In this document: piece by piece, positions 1-12,422 of the stretch
How the letters are laid out: the number at the start of each line of letters is the position of its first letter
Numbering within the stretch: position 1 is the stretch's first letter
IMG/VR virus record: IMGVR_UViG_2554235189_000012
Coordinates: 1-17,836 of that record
From: a virus
Taxonomy: Duplodnaviria; Heunggongvirae; Uroviricota; Caudoviricetes
Direction: 5' to 3' (one strand)
Length of the DNA stretch: 17,836 bases
Notes under the pieces: generated by a model
The model's database searches: none
What the model saw: only the letters and a program-made list of their open reading frames with translations
What the model was told of the DNA's origin: nothing
Program-made: the position numbers and the translations under genes

Positions 1-1248
1 ATGGCACTGAATATTCCATTCAGAAATGCGTACTATCGTTTTGCATCCAGTTACTCATTTCTCTTTTTTATTTCCTGGTCGCTGTGGTGGTCGTTATACG
101 CTATTTGGCTGAAAGGACATCTAGGGTTGACAGGGACGGAATTAGGTACACTTTATTCGGTCAACCAGTTTACCAGCATTCTATTTATGATGTTCTACGG
201 CATCGTTCAGGATAAACTCGGTCTGAAGAAACCGCTCATCTGGTGTATGAGTTTCATCCTGGTCTTGACCGGACCGTTTATGATTTACGTTTATGAACCG
301 TTACTGCAAAGCAATTTTTCTGTAGGTCTAATTCTGGGGGCGCTATTTTTTGGCTTGGGGTATCTGGCGGGATGCGGTTTGCTTGATAGCTTCACCGAAA
401 AAATGGCGCGAAATTTTTATTTCGAATATGGAACAGCGCGCGCCTGGGGATCTTTTGGCTATGCTATTGGCGCGTTCTTTGCCGGCATATTTTTTAGTAT
501 CAGTCCCCATATCAACTTCTGGTTGGTCTCGCTATTTGGCGCTGTATTTATGATGATCAACATGCGTTTTAAAGATAAGGATCACCAGTGCGTAGCGGCA
601 GATGCGGGAGGGGTAAAAAAAGAGGATTTTATCGCAGTTTTCAAGGATCGAAACTTCTGGGTTTTCGTCATATTTATTGTGGGGACGTGGTCTTTCTATA
701 ACATTTTTGATCAACAACTTTTTCCTGTCTTTTATGCAGGTTTATTCGAATCACACGATGTAGGAACGCGCCTGTATGGTTATCTCAACTCATTCCAGGT
801 GGTACTCGAAGCGCTGTGCATGGCGATTATTCCTTTCTTTGTGAATCGGGTAGGGCCAAAAAATGCATTACTTATCGGAGTTGTGATTATGGCGTTGCGT
901 ATCCTTTCCTGCGCGCTGTTCGTTAACCCCTGGATTATTTCATTAGTGAAGTTGTTACATGCCATTGAGGTTCCACTTTGTGTCATATCCGTCTTCAAAT
1001 ACAGCGTGGCAAACTTTGATAAGCGCCTGTCGTCGACGATCTTTCTGATTGGTTTTCAAATTGCCAGTTCGCTTGGGATTGTGCTGCTTTCAACGCCGAC
1101 TGGGATACTCTTTGACCACGCAGGCTACCAGACAGTTTTCTTCGCAATTTCGGGTATTGTCTGCCTGATGTTGCTATTTGGCATTTTCTTCTTGAGTAAA
1201 AAACGCGAGCAAATAGTTATGGAAACGCCTGTACCTTCAGCAATATAG
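1..1248 (+). CDS. cscB: Sucrose permease, LacY-family MFS sugar:H+ symporter
   Basis: 415-aa ORF beginning at window base 1 with TAG stop at 1246-1248; strongly hydrophobic multi-TM profile; sequence recognised from memory as E. coli CscB (MALNIPFRNAYYRF...). Confidence 0.9.
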   Translation: MALNIPFRNAYYRFASSYSFLFFISWSLWWSLYAIWLKGHLGLTGTELGTLYSVNQFTSILFMMFYGIVQDKLGLKKPLIWCMSFILVLTGPFMIYVYEPLLQSNFSVGLILGALFFGLGYLAGCGLLDSFTEKMARNFYFEYGTARAWGSFGYAIGAFFAGIFFSISPHINFWLVSLFGAVFMMINMRFKDKDHQCVAADAGGVKKEDFIAVFKDRNFWVFVIFIVGTWSFYNIFDQQLFPVFYAGLFESHDVGTRLYGYLNSFQVVLEALCMAIIPFFVNRVGPKNALLIGVVIMALRILSCALFVNPWIISLVKLLHAIEVPLCVISVFKYSVANFDKRLSSTIFLIGFQIASSLGIVLLSTPTGILFDHAGYQTVFFAISGIVCLMLLFGIFFLSKKREQIVMETPVPSAI

Positions 1249-1257
1249 ACGTAAACT

Positions 1258-1301
1258 TTTTCCGGTTGTTGTCGATAGCTCTATATCCCTCAACCGGAAA
1301 A
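1258..1301. repeat. Perfect 11-bp inverted repeat (TTTTCCGGTTG ... CAACCGGAAAA) with 22-nt loop, 10 nt after cscB stop
   Basis: Read directly from sequence; no U-run on either strand after the stem, so not a classical intrinsic terminator. Confidence 0.5.
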
Positions 1302-1689
1302 TAATAATAGTAAAATGCTTAGCCCTGCTAATAATCGCCTAATCCAAACGCCTCATTCATGTTCTGGTACAGTCGCTCAAATGTACTTCAGATGCGCGGT
1401 TCGCTGATTTCCAGGACATTGTCGTCATTCAGTGACCTGTCCCGTGTATCACGGTCCTGCGAATTCATCAAGGAATGCATTGCGGAGTGAAGTATCGAGT
1501 CACGCCATATTTCGCTATCAGGATTCTGTGTGATGGTTACATCGCCCGGCTCAGGGCTGTTTAGTCATCAGCGCTTTCTGACAGTGCTGAGATTTCAACC
1601 TGTTGCAGTAAAAATGAGTAGATATAAGGCAAGTGTGCTGCCAAACCCATCTTTTACGGGGTGAAGGTAGATTTCGTTTGAAGGGTATC

Positions 1690-1704
1690 TGGTGTCCCCT
1701 GCAG
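1690..1704 (-). other. 15-nt segment matching the 3' end (T-stem/acceptor/CCA) of an Arg tRNA (argW-like), reverse orientation; candidate att core remnant
   Basis: tggtgtcccctgcag is the reverse complement of CTGCAGGGGACACCA, which I recall as the 3' end of E. coli tRNA-Arg(CCU); identity stops after 15 nt, so no complete tRNA gene is present. Confidence 0.4.
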
Positions 1705-1777
1705 ACATCTACTTGAAGCGACAGGGGATTGATTGGAATGGTGTTTTTTAGATGTGAAAAATATTTTACCCGCTATT

Positions 1778-1978
1778 TTACCCATTGGCGCGGCTTAAGA
1801 GCTTATTTTTGAATTCACAATGGTCACGATATAACCATCTTGCTCGCCCGTGGATAACTTTGGCTTTTGGCAGGTCGCCGGACTTAATCCGGTCGTAGAT
1901 GAAGGTTTTACCGAAGCCAGTATCGGCCATGATGAATTTCAAATCAACCAGTGAATCAGGCTGGAGTTCGTGTTGCAT
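1778..1978 (-). CDS. xis: Excisionase-like / AlpA-family small DNA-binding protein
   Basis: 66-aa ORF with GGAG about 9 nt upstream of ATG; motif FIMADTGFGKTFIYDRIKSGDLPKAKVIHGRARW resembles prophage excisionase/AlpA-type winged-helix proteins; located at the prophage-chromosome junction. Confidence 0.5.
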   Translation of the reverse strand: MQHELQPDSLVDLKFIMADTGFGKTFIYDRIKSGDLPKAKVIHGRARWLYRDHCEFKNKLLSRANG

Positions 1979-1997
1979 GAGTGCTATCTCCGAATAT

Positions 1998-2013
1998 GGA
2001 ATCGAACCTGCAA
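1998..2013 (-). other. 16-nt segment matching the T-arm of the same Arg tRNA (reverse orientation), on the other side of xis
   Basis: ggaatcgaacctgcaa is the reverse complement of TTGCAGGTTCGATTCC, the stretch I recall immediately 5' of the 15-nt piece at 1690-1704 in argW; flanks do not continue the tRNA. Confidence 0.3.
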
Positions 2014-2020
2014 ATCAGGT

Positions 2021-2043
2021 AATAAAAAACCGCCATCAGGCGG
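2021..2043 (-). terminator. Putative intrinsic terminator on minus strand (5-bp stem CCGCC/GGCGG, loop TGAT, then TTTTTTATT)
   Basis: Hairpin plus U-run read from sequence; short stem, so moderate confidence; sits at the 3' end of the IS2-interrupted ORF. Confidence 0.4.
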
Positions 2044-2083
2044 CTTGGTGTTCTTTCAGTTCTTCAATACAAATATTGGTTAC

Positions 2084-2088
2084 GTCTG
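2084..2088. repeat. IS2 target-site duplication GTCTG (left copy)
   Basis: Identical 5-bp GTCTG directly abuts both ends of the IS2 element; 5-bp duplication is typical for IS2. Confidence 0.8.
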
Positions 2089-2099
2089 TGGATTTGCCC

Positions 2100-3005
2100 C
2101 TATATTTCCAGACATCTGTTATCACTTAACCCATTACAAGCCCGCTGCCGCAGATATTCCCGTGGCGAGCGATAACCCAGCGCACTATGCGGATGCCATT
2201 CGTTATAATGCTCGAACGCCTCTGCAAGGTTCTTTGCTGCCGTTAACCCGTCTGGTTTGGGCATGATACTGATGTAGTCACGCTTTATCGTTTTCACGAA
2301 GCTCTCTGCTATTCCGTTACTCTCCGGACTCCGCACCGCCGTGTTCTTCGGTTCAAGTCCCAACATCCGGGCGAACTGGCGTGTTTCATTAGCCCGGTAG
2401 CATGAACCATTATCCGTCAGCCACTCCACTGGAGACGACGGAAGATCGTTGCCGAAGCGGCGTTCCACCGCTCCCAGCATGACGTCCTGTACTGTTTCAC
2501 TGTTGAAGCCGCCGGTAGTCACCGCCCAGTGCAGTGCCTCACGATCACAGCAGTCCAGCGCGAACGTGACACGCAGTCTCTCTCCGTTATCACAGCAGAA
2601 CTCGAACCCGTCAGAGCACCATCGCTGATTGCTTTCTTTCACGGCCACTCTGCCTGTATGTGCCCGTTTCGATGGCGGTACAGCAGGTTTTCGCTCAAGC
2701 AACAGCGCATTCTGGCGCATGATCCGGTAAACACGTTTGGCATTGATCGCAGGCATACCATCAAGTTCTGCCTGTCTGCGAAGCAGCGCCCATACCCGAC
2801 GATAACCATACGTGGGCAGCTCTCCGATAACATGGTGTATACGGAGAAGCACATCCGTATCATCAGTGTGACGACTGCGGCGGCCATCCATCCAGTCATC
2901 GGTTCGTCTGAGAATGACGTGCAACTGCGCACGCGACACCCGGAGACAACGGCTGACTAAGCTTACTCCCCATCCCCGGGCAATAAGGGCGCGTGCGCTA
3001 TCCAC
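2100..3005 (-). CDS. insD: IS2 transposase OrfB (DDE integrase-type catalytic domain)
   Basis: 301-aa [26 protein letters not shown]... recognised as IS2 InsD; overlaps the 3' end of insC as expected for an IS3-family -1 frameshift arrangement. Confidence 0.9.
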
Positions 3006-3328
3006 TTTTTTGCCCGTCCATATTCAACGGCTTCTTTGAGGAGTTCATTTTCCATCGTTTTCTTGCCGAGCAGGCGCTGGAGTTCTTTAATCTGCTTCAT
3101 GGCGGCAGCAAGTTCAGAGGCAGGAACAACCTGTTCTCCGGCGGCCACAGCAGTAAGACTTCCTTCCTGGTATTGCTTACGCCAGAGAAATAACTGGCTG
3201 GCTGCTACACCATGTTGCCGGGCAACGAGGGAGACCGTCATCCCCGGTTCAAAGCTCTGCTGAACAATTGCGATCTTTTCCTGTGTGGTACGCCGTCTGC
3301 GTTTCTCCGGCCCTAAGACATCAATCAT
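2963..3328 (-). CDS. insC: IS2 OrfA (HTH DNA-binding protein)
   Basis: 121-aa [44 protein letters not shown]... recognised as IS2 InsC; the ORF-track entry starts 15 codons further upstream. Confidence 0.9.
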
Positions 3329-3419
3329 CTGTTCTCCAATGACTAGTCTAAAAACTAGTATTAAGACTATCACTTATTTAAGTGATACTGGTTGTCTGGA
3401 GATTCAGGGGGCCAGTCTA

Positions 3420-9113: not shown

Positions 9114-9266
9114 TCATTTCCTGCGATACCACGGAAGGTTGATAGCTGATTTCATCGCTTTATTTGCTTCAAGCCACATTTTTGAATCACCAATAAATCT
9201 GGCTATTACTGCTTTGTTCTGTGCAGCACGAAGCATCTGGTGATTAATGGCTATTTCATTGCGCAT
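9114..9266 (-). CDS. kil: Kil-like host cell-division inhibitor (50 aa), below ORF-track size cutoff
   Basis: MRNEIAINHQMLRAAQNKAVIARFIGDSKMWLEANKAMKSAINLPWYRRK shares the IA-FIGD-KM-EA pattern I recall from lambda Kil; immediately downstream of cIII as in lambda; GAGG RBS 7 nt upstream. Confidence 0.45.
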   Translation of the reverse strand: MRNEIAINHQMLRAAQNKAVIARFIGDSKMWLEANKAMKSAINLPWYRRK

Positions 9267-9376
9267 AATAAGACCTCAACTCTTTTCCATCCGTCACGTA
9301 ATTTACGGGTGATTCGTTCAAGTAAAGATTCGGAAGGGCAGCCAGCAACAGGCCACCCTGCAATGGCATATTGCAT
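9251..9376 (-). CDS. cIII: CIII-like regulator (inhibitor of FtsH-mediated CII degradation)
   Basis: MQYAIAGWPVAGCPSESLLERITRKLRDGWKR matches the lambda CIII N-terminal region as I recall it; AAGGAG RBS; the ORF-track entry 9251-9478 includes a non-coding upstream extension. Confidence 0.8.
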   Translation of the reverse strand: MQYAIAGWPVAGCPSESLLERITRKLRDGWKRVEVLLCAMK

Positions 9377-9436
9377 GGTGTGCTCCTTATTTATACATAA
9401 CGAAAAACGCCTCTCGTGAAGCGTTATTGGTATGCA

Positions 9437-9463
9437 TATAAAAAGGCCCTCACACTGGAGGGC
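9437..9463 (-). terminator. Intrinsic terminator on minus strand (stem GCCCTC/GAGGGC, 6-nt loop, then CTTTTTAT) upstream of cIII
   Basis: GC-rich 6-bp hairpin followed by a U-run on the minus strand; analogous in position to a tL terminator that would need N antitermination for read-through. Confidence 0.55.
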
Positions 9464-9599
9464 AAAGAAGATTTCCAATAATCAGAACAAGTCGGCTCCT
9501 GTTTAGTTACGAGCGACATTGCTCCGTGTATTCACTCGTTGGAATGAATACACAGTGCAGTGTTTATTCTGTTGTTTATGCCAAAAATAAAGGCCACTA

Positions 9600-10378: not shown

Positions 10379-10651
10379 TTACCTCGCTGTCAGTTGTTTT
10401 GATTTCCGGTAGCCTGCCGCGTAAAGAGCTACGTTTGGCAGGCAAATACTTCCACTGCATTCATCTGCCTTCTTGCAGCGAAGGCCTCCGAGTGATGCTG
10501 CTTTATCTGCTCTGACGCAACCAGAGAGCTTTAGCGCAATTTTTCGCGCCAGTCGCTGCTCTTGCATTGCCTGTTCACGTTGAGCCTGTCTGCGTGCTCT
10601 GCGGCGATTTCTGGCGTTATCGTCAGCCAGATATGTAATGACTACTGCCAT
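10379..10651 (-). CDS. N: N-like transcription antitermination protein with arginine-rich motif
   Basis: 90-aa ORF with GGAGG RBS; Arg-rich N-terminus (NARNRRRARRQAQREQ); central and C-terminal segments (ARKIALKLSGCVRADKAASLG..., VALYAAGYRKSKQLTAR) resemble phage 21 and P22 N proteins as recalled; lies downstream of pL/nutL. Confidence 0.75.
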   Translation of the reverse strand: MAVVITYLADDNARNRRRARRQAQREQAMQEQRLARKIALKLSGCVRADKAASLGGLRCKKADECSGSICLPNVALYAAGYRKSKQLTAR

Positions 10652-10799: not shown

Positions 10800-10845
10800 C
10801 TGCCAATCTGTTCCGTTTGGCTACCAGCGTCCTGCTGATGGCTAA

Positions 10846-10874
10846 AGAATACTGTAGGTATTTTATTGTGTAAA
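10846..10874 (-). promoter_or_regulatory. Candidate pL promoter (-35 TTTACA, 17-nt spacer, -10 TATTCT) overlapping operators
   Basis: Hexamers read on the minus strand overlap two AATAC-N5-GTATT operators; the same -10 hexamer and operator arrangement occur at pR. Confidence 0.4.
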
Positions 10875-10932
10875 TACCCAAGGTATTTATTTTTGATGAA
10901 ATAATGATAAGCAAATGAATACAAAGGATATT
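10848..10932. promoter_or_regulatory. oL operator region: three AATAC-N5-GTATT-type sites (10848-10862, 10873-10887, 10918-10932)
   Basis: AATACTGTAGGTATT, AATACCCAAGGTATT (part of a perfect 17-bp palindrome AAATACCCAAGGTATTT), AATACAAAGGATATT; same half-site as the oR sites. Confidence 0.55.
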
Positions 10933-11018
10933 TATTTTTTCGGTGTCTGCTTGTTCAGTGCTTTTTATGCGGGATATGTGAAGTGGATCCCGATAGCTAT
11001 TGCTGCCGGGATTATAGG

Positions 11019-11387
11019 TTAGTCAGCGAAGGTTAAGACGAGAATTACCTTAATGATGTCTGCTACAACAGACACGGCCATAGATAAACCAAAGACGATC
11101 CAAGCCACAGTGATGTCTTCACTACCATCGTATAGAGTTCCGTAATCACTGGTGTAAGGCGTAAATGTCGCGCCTTGATACAATAGGTATAAGCTTGATC
11201 CATAGAGGATAAATGCAGATATCCCTTGTATTGCTATGATCACCAGAATCATGAAACGAGCTGATCTATGCGCCCAAGCCTGGCTTATTTTTTCTGATAG
11301 AGATTTCGCAATAAAAGTATGCGCTAAGCCGTAAATTGTCGAGATTGCCAACATCCCAAAAAAGCTTGCTATAGCGGTTCCAACCAT
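11019..11387 (-). CDS. Small integral membrane protein (~122 aa, three predicted TM helices) downstream of cI
   Basis: ORF begins 18 nt after the cI stop with AAGGGG upstream of ATG at 11387 (the ORF track starts it at a TTG inside the cI stop); three hydrophobic segments; occupies the position of rexAB in lambda. Confidence 0.6.
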   Translation of the reverse strand: MVGTAIASFFGMLAISTIYGLAHTFIAKSLSEKISQAWAHRSARFMILVIIAIQGISAFILYGSSLYLLYQGATFTPYTSDYGTLYDGSEDITVAWIVFGLSMAVSVVADIIKVILVLTFAD

Positions 11388-11404
11388 AATCGCCCCTTGC
11401 GTGA

Positions 11405-12121
11405 TCAAACCAGCCTTAGTTTTGTCTCAATTGCAACGCCTATAATCTTGCAGTTTCCATTGATTGGCACGAGAGGCCATGCAGGATTAAGTCCCTTGAG
11501 GTATTTATTTCCGCCGTCGATTATCAGCTTCTTGAATGTTGCTTCGTTAGAGTCAGAAAGTTTTGCTATGACCAAGCTGCCGTTGATCGCCTCCCTTCCG
11601 GTATCGAAAAGAACGAATGTTCCCTCTGGAATACTTAACCCAACCGGTGCCGTCATTGAATCACCTTCCACTTTAAGCCAGAACGCATTACCTTGAATAT
11701 GCGCGTCAGACTCAAGCCAAACATCTATGTCTTTAATGGTGTATGGTTCGCATGCTTCACACCACGAGCCAGCCTGGATACTGCTTAACACCGGATACCT
11801 CTTTCCTGCTCTGTATTCCCCTGCATACCTTACGTTGGCATCGCTCTTAAGGCTTTCTGCCTGTTCTGCAACCTTGGCAGCAATTGACTGGCTAAAATCA
11901 GCAATTGAGACTTGCAACAAACGTGCAAAACCAGATGCGACCTCAACGTTTAGCGCGTTTCTGCCATTAAGATAATGCCCTACCGCTCCTTGGGTGATAC
12001 CCAGTTCATCAGCGATTGAGTATTGGGTTATTCCCAATTCTTTCTTTTTTGACTCATACAAAGCCTTAAGCCGCTTAGCGTCTTCGAGCTGTTCTGTCGT
12101 CAGTGATTTTTTATTTTCCAT
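11405..12121 (-). CDS. cI: CI-type prophage repressor (HTH_XRE N-terminal domain plus LexA/S24-like C-terminal domain)
   Basis: 238-aa ORF; N-terminus TEQLEDAKRLKALYESKKKELGITQYSIADELG parallels lambda CI; C-terminal FWLKVEGDSMTAP matches the S24 autocleavage domain; divergent from cro with operators between. Confidence 0.9.
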   Translation of the reverse strand: MENKKSLTTEQLEDAKRLKALYESKKKELGITQYSIADELGITQGAVGHYLNGRNALNVEVASGFARLLQVSIADFSQSIAAKVAEQAESLKSDANVRYAGEYRAGKRYPVLSSIQAGSWCEACEPYTIKDIDVWLESDAHIQGNAFWLKVEGDSMTAPVGLSIPEGTFVLFDTGREAINGSLVIAKLSDSNEATFKKLIIDGGNKYLKGLNPAWPLVPINGNCKIIGVAIETKLRLV

Positions 12122-12227: not shown

Positions 12228-12422
12228 ATGATTCGAATGACACTTGCCGATTACGCCAAAATCCATGGACAGGCTAAAGCAGCCAGTGACTTTGGTGTAA
12301 TCCAGTGCGCTATCAGCAAGGCCATTCTGGCAGGCCGTAACATTATGGTTACGGTAAAGCCTGATGGCAGTGTGATTGGAGAGGAAGTTCGTCCTTTCCC
12401 AAGCAACAAGAAAAACAAATAG
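12228..12422 (+). CDS. cro: Cro-like repressor
   Basis: 64-aa [65 protein letters not shown], homologous in pattern to lambda Cro; GGAG RBS; the ORF track starts it at an upstream GTG. Confidence 0.8.

What the first reader, a model, noticed from the sequence alone, without database searches (positions are those of the whole stretch)
11019..11408. Small three-TM membrane protein downstream of cI at the rexAB-equivalent locus: candidate exclusion/abortive-infection gene
A ~122-aa ORF with three clear hydrophobic helices begins 18 nt after the cI stop on the same strand, upstream of oL/pL. In lambda this slot holds rexA-rexB, and the gene directly downstream of the repressor is a recurrent site for lysogen-expressed defense cargo. 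The protein is much smaller than RexB and I recognise no family, so it may be an uncharacterised single-gene exclusion or membrane-depolarising factor.
Basis: partly seen in the sequence, partly recalled or inferred. Interest (0 to 1): 0.6.

Follow-up and report, generated by a model that had tools for sequence, protein, structure and literature searches.

The report
hkaS: small membrane gene after cI
The ORF is real: it is hkaS, a gene for a 122-residue three-helix inner-membrane protein that always sits just after the HK620-type prophage repressor gene, and it is a reasonable but wholly untested candidate for a lysogen-expressed anti-phage protein.

Summary
Window 11019-11387 (minus strand) encodes a 122-aa protein. 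It has an AAGGGG ribosome-binding site and starts 17 nt after the cI stop codon. Three hydrophobic helices are predicted: N-terminus out, a K/R-rich loop in, an acidic loop out, C-terminus in.

It is not new as an ORF. It is hkaS of coliphage HK620, annotated "unknown" in the GenBank record, and it matches PHROG 6534 (function unknown).

It is a real gene:
- All 81 sampled alleles are intact.
- Omega is 0.13, against 0.03 for cI at the same synonymous distance.

It is linked to this repressor wherever both could be examined. 146 of 5,426 complete E. coli genomes carry hkaS and 146 carry this cI. Homologues as low as 52% identical, from Salmonella, Hafnia and Buttiauxella, sit in the same position.

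The family is tiny, with one 50%-identity cluster among 1.84 billion proteins. It has no sequence or fold relationship to RexB, SieA, SieB, holins or any PADLOC family.

The slot itself carries varied cargo: rexAB in lambda, other genes in 434 and BHUENT3, nothing in P22.

The defence reading therefore rests on position and architecture alone. My best guess is a membrane-level block to superinfecting phages (confidence about 0.4). Interest is moderate.

The parts
11019..11387 (-). hkaS coding sequence: 122 aa plus TAA stop. Predicted inner-membrane protein with three TM helices.
   Evidence: ORF and translation. It is 98-99% identical to HK620 hkaS / mEpX2 'hypothetical protein'. Full-length match to PHROG 6534, E = 7.7e-79. 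81/81 alleles intact. Omega 0.13 against the Hafnia allele.
11388..11404 (-). 17-nt cI-hkaS spacer carrying the Shine-Dalgarno AAGGGG (11393-11398). There is no room for a promoter, which implies co-transcription with cI.
   Evidence: Sequence. An SD-like AAGGA/AAAGGA motif is kept in all divergent lineages with a 17-20 nt spacer.
11307..11384 (-). TM1 (residues 2-27) with a conserved G3-xxx-[A/G]7-xxx-G11 glycine-zipper-like motif.
   Evidence: Hydropathy; alignments; AF2 helix 2-29.
11256..11306 (-). Loop 1 (residues 28-44, KSLSEKISQAWAHRSAR), predicted cytoplasmic. It is the best conserved segment.
   Evidence: 4 K/R against 1 acidic residue. 53% invariant columns and 71% mean pairwise identity. 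Short helix 31-38 in the AF2 model.
11172..11255 (-). TM2 (residues 45-72) with invariant Q54, S65, Y67 and Y70.
11109..11171 (-). Loop 2 (residues 73-93), predicted periplasmic, acidic and Tyr/Thr-rich, with a small beta-hairpin. It is the most variable segment and the site of the common T93S (with V94M at the start of TM3) dimorphism.
   Evidence: 4 D/E and no K/R. 19% invariant columns. T93S and V94M occur together in 37 of 81 alleles.
11028..11108 (-). TM3 (residues 94-120) with invariant D110 and K113. It runs into the invariant C-terminal ILVLTFAD, whose last two residues (121-122, nt 11022-11027) lie just outside this interval.
   Evidence: The invariant codons vary at synonymous sites, so the constraint acts on the protein.
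10987..11012 (-). GC-rich stem-loop 6 nt after the hkaS stop codon, with no U-tract. Candidate 3'-end or terminator structure of the cI-hkaS transcript.
   Evidence: MFE -14.1 kcal/mol, z = -2.75. Each divergent lineage has a hairpin of its own, with an unrelated sequence, at the same place (-16 to -18.5 kcal/mol). Function is inferred.
11405..12121 (-). cI repressor (238 aa, HTH_3 plus Peptidase_S24), the upstream gene of the presumed pRM operon.
   Evidence: Pfam; HK620 annotation.
10839..10937 (-). OL3-OL2-OL1 and pL, plus the element annotated tIMM in HK620, all downstream of hkaS.
   Evidence: Coordinates transferred from the HK620 GenBank annotation through a gap-free 99.2% alignment. 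The promoter-like site 10874-10846 was found independently.

Best explanation
hkaS is an accessory ('moron'-type) gene of the HK620-type immunity module.

Expression: it is transcribed together with cI from the repressor promoters. It is therefore made in the lysogen and translated from its own ribosome-binding site.

Product: a 122-residue protein that inserts in the inner membrane with its N-terminus outside. A conserved basic loop faces the cytoplasm, a variable acidic loop faces the periplasm, and the C-terminus is at the inner face. The glycine-zipper-like motif in TM1 and the buried Q54/D110/K113 suggest that it packs as an oligomer or against another membrane protein.

Proposed function: it protects the lysogen from heteroimmune superinfecting phages at the level of the inner membrane. 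The likeliest route is interference with the membrane step of genome delivery, as P22 SieA, T4 Imm and HK97 gp15 do. A less likely route is membrane collapse when a phage membrane protein appears.

Shown here: the gene is real, it is under selection, it is linked to cI, and its architecture is as described. Inferred: co-transcription with cI, the topology, oligomerisation, and the whole anti-phage function.
For: - Real gene under purifying selection. Omega is 0.13 against the Hafnia allele, at the same dS as cI (0.69 vs 0.78). 81/81 alleles are intact across 36 nucleotide haplotypes.
- Expression context. The spacer is 17-20 nt with a conserved SD, and the simple consensus scan found no terminator-like site on that strand between the genes. 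A lineage-specific hairpin follows the stop codon.
- Linkage to cI. 146 E. coli genomes carry hkaS and 146 carry this cI. 79 of 79 assessable IMG/VR loci have cI directly upstream. Homologues of 52-84% identity all sit directly after cI.
- Cargo slot. The same position holds rexAB in lambda, unrelated genes in 434/Sf101 and BHUENT3, and nothing in P22. bstA also occupies it, and the cI-N interval is a known mosaic hotspot (PMC8585504).
- Architecture. A three-TM inner-membrane protein with almost no soluble domain, like SieA, which is a three-TM inner-membrane protein that blocks DNA delivery (PMC10883804).
- Variability. The periplasmic loop is the most variable part. Non-synonymous polymorphism is about 7 times denser than in cI at equal synonymous density (Fisher p = 3e-4).
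- Module behaviour. The gene travels with the immunity module into podoviruses, siphoviruses and Stx phages, as expected of an immunity-linked cargo gene.
Against: - There is no experimental datum. I found no paper on hkaS.
- There is no homology to any known exclusion or defence family and no informative fold match.
- The MK test shows no excess of fixed amino-acid changes (p = 0.15). Most polymorphisms are conservative singletons, so the faster evolution fits relaxed constraint on TM helices as well as an arms race.
- The best conserved parts are the cytoplasmic loop and the C-terminal tail. That points to a conserved host or phage partner on the inside rather than to variable incoming phages.
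- Position next to cI is only a prior. The same slot in lambda also influences the lysis-lysogeny switch (bioRxiv 10.1101/2021.04.19.439022).
Confidence: 0.4

Rival explanations
1. RexB-like abortive-infection effector. HkaS forms, or is gated into, an ion-conducting oligomer that depolarises the infected lysogen and aborts the infection.
For: - It occupies the same operon position as rexB.
- It has a glycine-zipper-like TM1 and invariant polar or charged residues inside the TM helices: Q54, D110 and K113.
Against: - There is no RexA-like sensor gene. hkaS follows cI directly.
- It has three TM helices, not four, and no homology to RexB.
- A protein with 17- and 21-residue loops has little capacity to sense infection on its own.
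- A constitutively made pore would be toxic to the lysogen.
Confidence: 0.15
2. Switch or physiology modulator acting on the prophage itself. HkaS binds the cI C-terminal domain, or a host protease such as FtsH or ClpXP, at the membrane. It thereby tunes repressor stability, induction threshold or the establishment of lysogeny, as proposed for RexB and CI in lambda.
For: - hkaS stays attached to the cI C-terminal S24 domain even where the N-terminal DNA-binding domain and cro have been replaced (Buttiauxella locus).
- The most conserved segments face the cytoplasm.
- RexB interacts with CI in two-hybrid assays and RexAB alter induction (bioRxiv 10.1101/2021.04.19.439022).
Against: - A cI C-terminal domain 85% identical occurs with quite different downstream genes (BHUENT3). 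The 72%-identical 434 domain carries a secreted protein instead. P22 c2 has nothing there. The repressor domain therefore does not need HkaS.
- Linkage over 17 nt is expected from proximity alone.
Confidence: 0.13
3. Lysogenic-conversion factor for host fitness that is unrelated to phages, such as envelope stress, ion or small-molecule tolerance, or colonisation, in the way of bor and lom.
For: - It is expressed from the most active prophage promoter in lysogens (inference from position).
- It is found in 2.7% of complete E. coli genomes from many hosts and sources.
- It is under purifying selection.
Against: - There is no similarity to any transporter or stress protein family. The weak Cation_ATPase_C hit is below threshold (16.4 against 27.3 bits).
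- The family is confined to one immunity module of lambdoid prophages. A generally useful host trait would be expected to spread further.
Confidence: 0.15
4. No function: a chance or decaying ORF kept only because it lies between cI and oL.
For: It has no known family and a very narrow distribution. Within E. coli, pN/pS is about 0.4.
Against: - 81/81 alleles are intact with no frameshift or stop codon.
- Omega is 0.13 at dS about 0.7, and the protein is still recognisable when silent sites are saturated.
- The start codon and SD are conserved.
- Invariant motifs vary at synonymous sites.
- AF2 gives a confident fold.
Confidence: 0.03

Closest known systems
hkaS of coliphage HK620 (AAK28867.1; Clark et al. 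2001, J Mol Biol 311:657) and its orthologues in mEpX2, HK630, HK140, HF4s, phi296/phi367 and Stx2c phages; PHROG 6534
   Same: The same gene: 96.7-99.2% protein identity in all listed records except HF4s (90.2%, aligned in two pieces), the same position between cI and OL3, and the same length.
   Different: Nothing of substance. The window allele carries a private A24T change relative to the commonest variant. Every record annotates the function as unknown or hypothetical.
Lambda RexB (with RexA)
   Same: An inner-membrane protein encoded downstream of cI in the pRM operon, upstream of oL. It is lysogen-expressed by position.
   Different: RexB is 144 aa with four TM helices and both termini in the cytoplasm, and it needs RexA. 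HkaS is 122 aa with three TM helices, N-terminus out, and no partner gene. hhalign probability is 0.6%.
P22 SieA (types A-C)
   Same: A small prophage-expressed inner-membrane protein with three predicted TM helices and almost no soluble domain (PMC10883804). This is the working model for how HkaS might act.
   Different: SieA is 162-164 aa, lies between the gene 16 and gene 9 homologues of P22-like prophages, and has its own promoter. hhalign probability is 0.3%. hkaS travels with the immunity module into siphoviruses and Stx phages.
BstA (BTP1) and other cargo of the cI-N hotspot, such as nun of HK022
   Same: The same genomic slot and the same presumed transcription from the repressor promoter (PMC8585504).
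   Different: BstA is a large soluble DNA-associated abortive-infection protein with an aba self-immunity element. It shares neither sequence nor architecture with HkaS.
Class I holins (lambda S105 type)
   Same: About 100-120 aa, three TM helices, N-out/C-in topology, and glycine-zipper-type helix packing (own knowledge).
   Different: HkaS has no charged C-terminal cytoplasmic tail. It is not in a lysis cassette and is not under late control. No holin family was hit in Pfam or PHROGs.

Membership tests
PHROG 6534 / HK620 HkaS orthologue group | Full-length sequence match to the family profile | tested here: met
   E = 7.7e-79, residues 1-122 on profile positions 1-122. 98.3% identity to HK620 hkaS.
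PHROG 6534 / HK620 HkaS orthologue group | Position immediately 3' of an HTH_3 plus S24 cI repressor, upstream of OL | tested here: met
   Window; 79/79 IMG/VR loci; Salmonella, Hafnia, metagenome and Buttiauxella loci.
Lambda RexB | Sequence or profile homology to RexB | tested here: not met
   hhalign probability 0.6%. No RexB-type Pfam or PHROG hit.
Lambda RexB | Four TM helices with both termini cytoplasmic | tested here: not met
   Three hydrophobic helices, with charge distribution indicating N-out/C-in. This is a prediction only.
Lambda RexB | Partner sensor gene rexA in the same operon | tested here: not met
   Only 17 nt separate cI and hkaS, and OL follows hkaS.
Lambda RexB | Exclusion of T4 rII and other phages with loss of membrane potential | not testable with these tools
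   Needs plating and membrane-potential assays.
P22 SieA | Sequence or profile homology to SieA types A-C | tested here: not met
   hhalign probability 0.3% against P22 SieA, type A. No SieA-type family among the PHROG hits at E <= 1. Types B and C were not compared directly.
P22 SieA | Inner-membrane protein with three TM helices | tested here: met
   Predicted only. Localisation was not tested.
P22 SieA | Located between the gene 16 and gene 9 homologues of P22-like prophages | tested here: not met
   hkaS lies in the immC region after cI. It also occurs in siphoviruses.
P22 SieA | Blocks DNA delivery by superinfecting phage | not testable with these tools
   Needs potassium-efflux or DNA-entry assays.
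SieB / T4 Imm / other Pfam superinfection-exclusion families | Sequence match to the family model | tested here: not met
   hhalign against P22 SieB gives probability 0.1%. The Pfam scan at E <= 1 returns only sub-threshold Cation_ATPase_C and TssN.
Known anti-phage defence systems (PADLOC-DB 2.0) | Match to any defence-protein model | tested here: not met
   0 families at E <= 10.
Class I holin | Three TM helices, N-out/C-in | tested here: met
   Predicted topology.
Class I holin | Charged cytoplasmic C-terminal tail, and a gene in the late lysis cassette | tested here: not met
   The protein ends ...ILVLTFAD right after TM3. The gene lies in the immunity region.
Cargo ('moron') gene of the cI-oL/N hotspot | The slot is variably occupied among phages with related repressors | tested here: met
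   Lambda has rexAB. 434 and Sf101 have a 134-aa signal-peptide protein. BHUENT3 has two other ORFs. P22 has none.
Cargo ('moron') gene of the cI-oL/N hotspot | Expressed from the prophage in the lysogen | not testable with these tools
   Inferred from the 17-nt spacer and the absence of a terminator-like site between the genes in the consensus scan. Needs RNA-seq.

The most novel reading that the evidence does not exclude
HkaS founds a new single-gene defence family. It would be a 122-residue glycine-zipper membrane protein with no cytoplasmic sensor. It would recognise a membrane-inserting component of an incoming phage (ejection proteins, tape-measure or pilot proteins, or a holin) directly within the bilayer, and then either plug the DNA conduit or open a pore. 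The invariant C-terminal ILVLTFAD tail and the basic loop would couple it to a conserved host partner.
Probability: 0.12. Interest if true: 0.65.

Novelty: new member of a known kind. Interest (0 to 1): 0.38.

Why it matters
The interval just after the repressor gene is the best expressed part of a lambdoid prophage. It has already yielded RexAB, Nun and BstA.

hkaS is present in about 2.7% of complete E. coli genomes, including Stx2c-converting phages. It also occurs in the well-used model phage HK620. Even so, I found no published functional study of it.

It is a single short gene that moves as a unit with one immunity type, so a deletion or an expression clone would give a clean test. A positive result would add a sequence-novel small membrane protein to the short list of exclusion proteins (SieA, Imm, gp15). 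The conserved residues defined here (G3/A7/G11, Q54, D110, K113, ILVLTFAD) would be ready-made targets for mutagenesis. A negative result would show that position after cI is a weaker predictor of defence than is often assumed.

Tried and rejected
- **Family and profile searches.** Pfam, NCBIfam and PADLOC gave nothing usable, and PHROGs gave only the unknown-function family. PDB sequence search returned 0 hits at E <= 10.
- **Deep homology searches.** The word-indexed search found 12 clusters, all at least 52% identical. The exhaustive profile search of 1.84 billion representatives found one full-length cluster plus a 44-aa fragment. No remote relatives are available to borrow a function from.
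- **Direct profile comparisons.** SieA, RexB and SieB all gave probabilities below 1%.
- **The 129-aa TTG-extended ORF.** Rejected because the extension is not conserved.
- **A canonical intrinsic terminator after hkaS.** The scan found none on that strand. Only a hairpin without a U-tract is present.
- **An internal promoter for hkaS (pLIT-like).** No consensus match within cI, but weak promoters would be missed.
- **Positive selection.** The MK test is not significant (p = 0.15).
- **Literature.** Seven searches found no study of hkaS. The bare term 'hkaS' hits only a fungal herbarium acronym.
- **T4 Imm and HK97 gp15.** These were not compared directly because I did not fetch the sequences. 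Their exclusion rests only on the Pfam and PHROG scans.
Full report
**1. The observation**

The window is part of a lambdoid prophage early region. On the minus strand lie N (10379-10651; Pfam N_peptide), a 238-aa cI (11405-12121; HTH_3 plus Peptidase_S24) and, divergently, cro (12228-12422; Pfam Cro).

Between cI and N, the ORF listing gives an ORF at 11019-11408 (-) of 129 aa from TTG. It is preceded by AAGGGG at a 5-nt spacing and lies 17 nt after the cI TGA (11407-11405).

The TTG extension is not conserved. It is out of frame in the Hafnia homologue and stopped in the Salmonella one. The spacer also varies from 17 to 19 nt among E. coli alleles. The coding sequence is therefore 11019-11387.

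Hydropathy shows three strong hydrophobic stretches at about residues 2-27, 45-72 and 94-120. Loop 1 (28-44) has four K/R and loop 2 (73-93) has four D/E and no K/R. By the positive-inside rule this predicts N-terminus out, loop 1 in, loop 2 out and C-terminus in.

AlphaFold2 on an 8-sequence alignment gives three long helices, a short helix at 31-38 and a small hairpin in loop 2. Mean pLDDT is 88.7 and pTM is 0.75.

**2. Identity**

The 1.9-kb immunity region is 99.2-99.6% identical to phages mEpX2, phi296/phi367, HZ41, HK620 and HK630, 99.1% to HF4s and 98.8% to HK140.

In the HK620 GenBank record the ORF is gene hkaS, product 'unknown'. It is flanked by annotated tIMM, OL3-OL1/pL and nutL on one side and by cI on the other. 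In every other record it is 'hypothetical protein'.

It matches PHROG 6534 (function unknown) end to end, E = 7.7e-79. It matches nothing above threshold in Pfam and nothing at all in NCBIfam or PADLOC. The ORF is therefore catalogued, but no function is attached to it. Seven full-text searches found no paper that studies it.

**3. Is it a real gene?**

Yes. Against the Hafnia allele, hkaS and cI have the same synonymous divergence (dS 0.69 and 0.78). They have therefore been inherited together. Omega is 0.13 for hkaS and 0.028 for cI.

In more distant lineages silent sites are saturated in both genes, yet HkaS is still 52-61% identical. cI is 86-88% identical in the same comparisons.

Among 81 alleles (80 IMG/VR loci plus the window) there are 36 nucleotide haplotypes and not one frameshift or stop codon.

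Polymorphism is 22 non-synonymous to 17 synonymous in hkaS, against 6 to 33 in cI (Fisher p = 3e-4). Synonymous densities per site are equal (my estimate from the counts). HkaS therefore tolerates about seven times more amino-acid change.

The changes are mostly conservative singletons. A McDonald-Kreitman test against Hafnia is not significant (p = 0.15). So there is purifying selection, weaker than on cI, and no demonstrable adaptive evolution.

**4. Distribution and linkage**

The family is very small. The indexed search of 5.8 billion proteins found 12 clusters, all at least 52% identical. A profile search of 1.84 billion 50%-identity representatives found one full-length cluster. One GTDB species representative carries it, an uncultured Buttiauxella sp..

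In complete E. coli genomes, 146 of 5,426 carry hkaS and 146 carry this cI, with 147 places each.

Every homologue examined lies 17-20 nt after a cI of 215 to 240 aa. This holds for Salmonella, Hafnia, metagenome and Buttiauxella loci and for 79 of 79 assessable IMG/VR loci.

The module sits in P22-like podoviruses (HK620, HF4s), siphoviruses (mEpX2, HK140, HK630) and Stx2c phages. It therefore follows the immunity type, not the virion type.

Two recombinants are informative:
- The Buttiauxella prophage has a different N-terminal DNA-binding domain and a different cro. It keeps the same cI C-terminal domain followed by hkaS.
- Enterobacter phage BHUENT3 has a cI C-terminal domain 85% identical but other genes downstream. 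Phages 434 and Sf101 (72%) carry a 134-aa signal-peptide protein there.

P22 has nothing between c2 and OL, and lambda has rexA-rexB. The position is thus a variable cargo slot and hkaS is one of its occupants. The repressor domain does not require it.

**5. Anatomy relevant to mechanism**

The 17-nt spacer leaves no room for a promoter, and the simple consensus scan found no terminator-like site on that strand between cI and hkaS. Co-transcription from pRM/pRE is the straightforward inference, but it is not shown.

Six nucleotides after the stop codon there is a GC-rich hairpin (10987-11012, -14.1 kcal/mol) without a U-tract. The Hafnia, Salmonella and metagenome lineages each have a hairpin of their own, with an unrelated sequence, at the same place (-16 to -18.5 kcal/mol). 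This argues for a conserved RNA 3'-end or terminator function.

Within the protein, conservation across five lineages is as follows:

| Segment | Mean pairwise identity |
|---|---|
| Cytoplasmic loop | 71% |
| TM3 and C-terminus | 64% |
| Periplasmic loop | 49% |

- The cytoplasmic loop carries invariant K33, I34, W38, H40, A43 and R44.
- TM3 and the C-terminus carry invariant D110 and K113 and an invariant terminal ILVLTFAD.
- The periplasmic loop is the least conserved segment and carries the common T93S dimorphism, which is linked to V94M at the first residue of TM3.

The invariant codons differ at synonymous sites, so the constraint acts on the protein. TM1 carries G3-xxx-[A/G]7-xxx-G11 in all lineages. 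From general knowledge, this glycine-zipper type of motif marks tight helix-helix packing in oligomeric membrane proteins.

**6. Comparison with known systems**

- Profile comparisons with lambda RexB, P22 SieA and P22 SieB give probabilities of 0.6%, 0.3% and 0.1%.
- HkaS differs from RexB in having three TM helices rather than four, and in having no RexA partner.
- It differs from SieA in genome position and size.
- It differs from class I holins in lacking a charged C-terminal tail and in its genomic context.

What it shares with SieA (three TM helices, inner membrane, blocks DNA delivery; PMC10883804), and from my own knowledge with T4 Imm and HK97 gp15, is the general design. That design is a small prophage- or phage-encoded inner-membrane protein with almost no soluble domain.

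**7. Mechanism**

A protein with loops of 17 and 21 residues cannot plausibly sense cytoplasmic events. It can interact with other membrane-embedded proteins.

Its position in the repressor operon is shared with RexAB and BstA, in a cI-N interval described as a hotspot of mosaic diversity (PMC8585504). Given that, the explanation I favour is a membrane-level block to superinfecting phages. Most likely it interferes with the inner-membrane step of genome entry (confidence 0.4 for anti-phage action at the membrane, and lower for the specific step).

The rivals and my confidence in each are:

| Rival explanation | Confidence |
|---|---|
| RexB-like depolarising abortive-infection effector | 0.15 |
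| Modulator of the repressor switch or of host proteases, as proposed for RexB (bioRxiv 10.1101/2021.04.19.439022). The conserved cytoplasmic face and the linkage to the cI C-terminal domain favour this slightly. | 0.13 |
| Host-fitness conversion factor | 0.15 |
| No function | 0.03 |

All functional statements are inferences. None is shown.

**8. Verdict**

The sequence observation is correct, and the positional argument is sound and consistent with published views of this hotspot. However, the gene is already known as hkaS, and I found no computational evidence that supports a defence function beyond position and architecture.

It is best filed as a new, sequence-unrelated member of a known kind: a lysogen-expressed small membrane cargo gene at the repressor locus. 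Interest is moderate. It is a cheap and well-defined experimental target, present in a model phage and in about 2.7% of complete E. coli genomes.

Noticed in passing
window 9331-9389 (-): Rfam Lambda_thermo (RF01804), the cIII mRNA thermoregulator element, at 88.5 bits against a gathering score of 50. It overlaps the start of the cIII-like ORF (9251-9478).
   Followed up: no
window 1-3373: The window opens with a LacY-family sugar symporter (1-1248, cscB-like). The same csc flank is included in the 'phage' record ON470589, so this is host DNA. An IS3-family element follows (orfA 2963-3373, orfB 2100-3005, minus strand). No integrase lies between the host gene and the prophage early-left genes, so the prophage end may be rearranged or defective.
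   Followed up: partly
window 10987-11012 (-); L010, L004 and L008 just 3' of hkaS: Each hkaS lineage has its own strong hairpin immediately after the stop codon. The sequences are unrelated and there is no U-tract. The element annotated tIMM in HK620 (window 10907-10937) is an AU-rich weak hairpin that overlaps OL3. The real 3' end of the cI-hkaS transcript may be misannotated.
   Followed up: partly
L015 2067-3369 (uncultured Buttiauxella sp.): A prophage repressor with a different N-terminal HTH domain and an unrelated 61-aa cro keeps the HK620-type C-terminal S24 domain plus hkaS (56% identical). This places a recombination junction inside cI, at the domain boundary.
   Followed up: partly
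L096 2190-2594 (phage 434), L098 2190-2594 (Sf101), L097 2224-2940 (Enterobacter phage BHUENT3): Other cargo follows related cI C-terminal domains. In 434 and Sf101 it is a 134-aa protein with an N-terminal signal peptide that overlaps the cI stop codon, annotated 'repressor protection protein' in one 434 record. In BHUENT3 it is a 127-aa CxxC...CxxC protein plus a 109-aa protein with a C-terminal TM helix. None was characterised here.
   Followed up: no
hkaS codons 93-94 (window 11106-11111): A linked T93S plus V94M dimorphism at the boundary of the periplasmic loop and TM3 splits the E. coli alleles 37 to 44 (37 of 81 carry a change at these codons, one of them T93Y). The window allele has a private A24T change.
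   Followed up: partly
L003 (HK140) 353-922; Stx2c phages LC645408 and LC645426: Some carriers have an extra 200-340 bp between hkaS/OL and N. HK140 annotates a 41-aa ORF there. This is a second small variable insertion point within the same interval.
   Followed up: no
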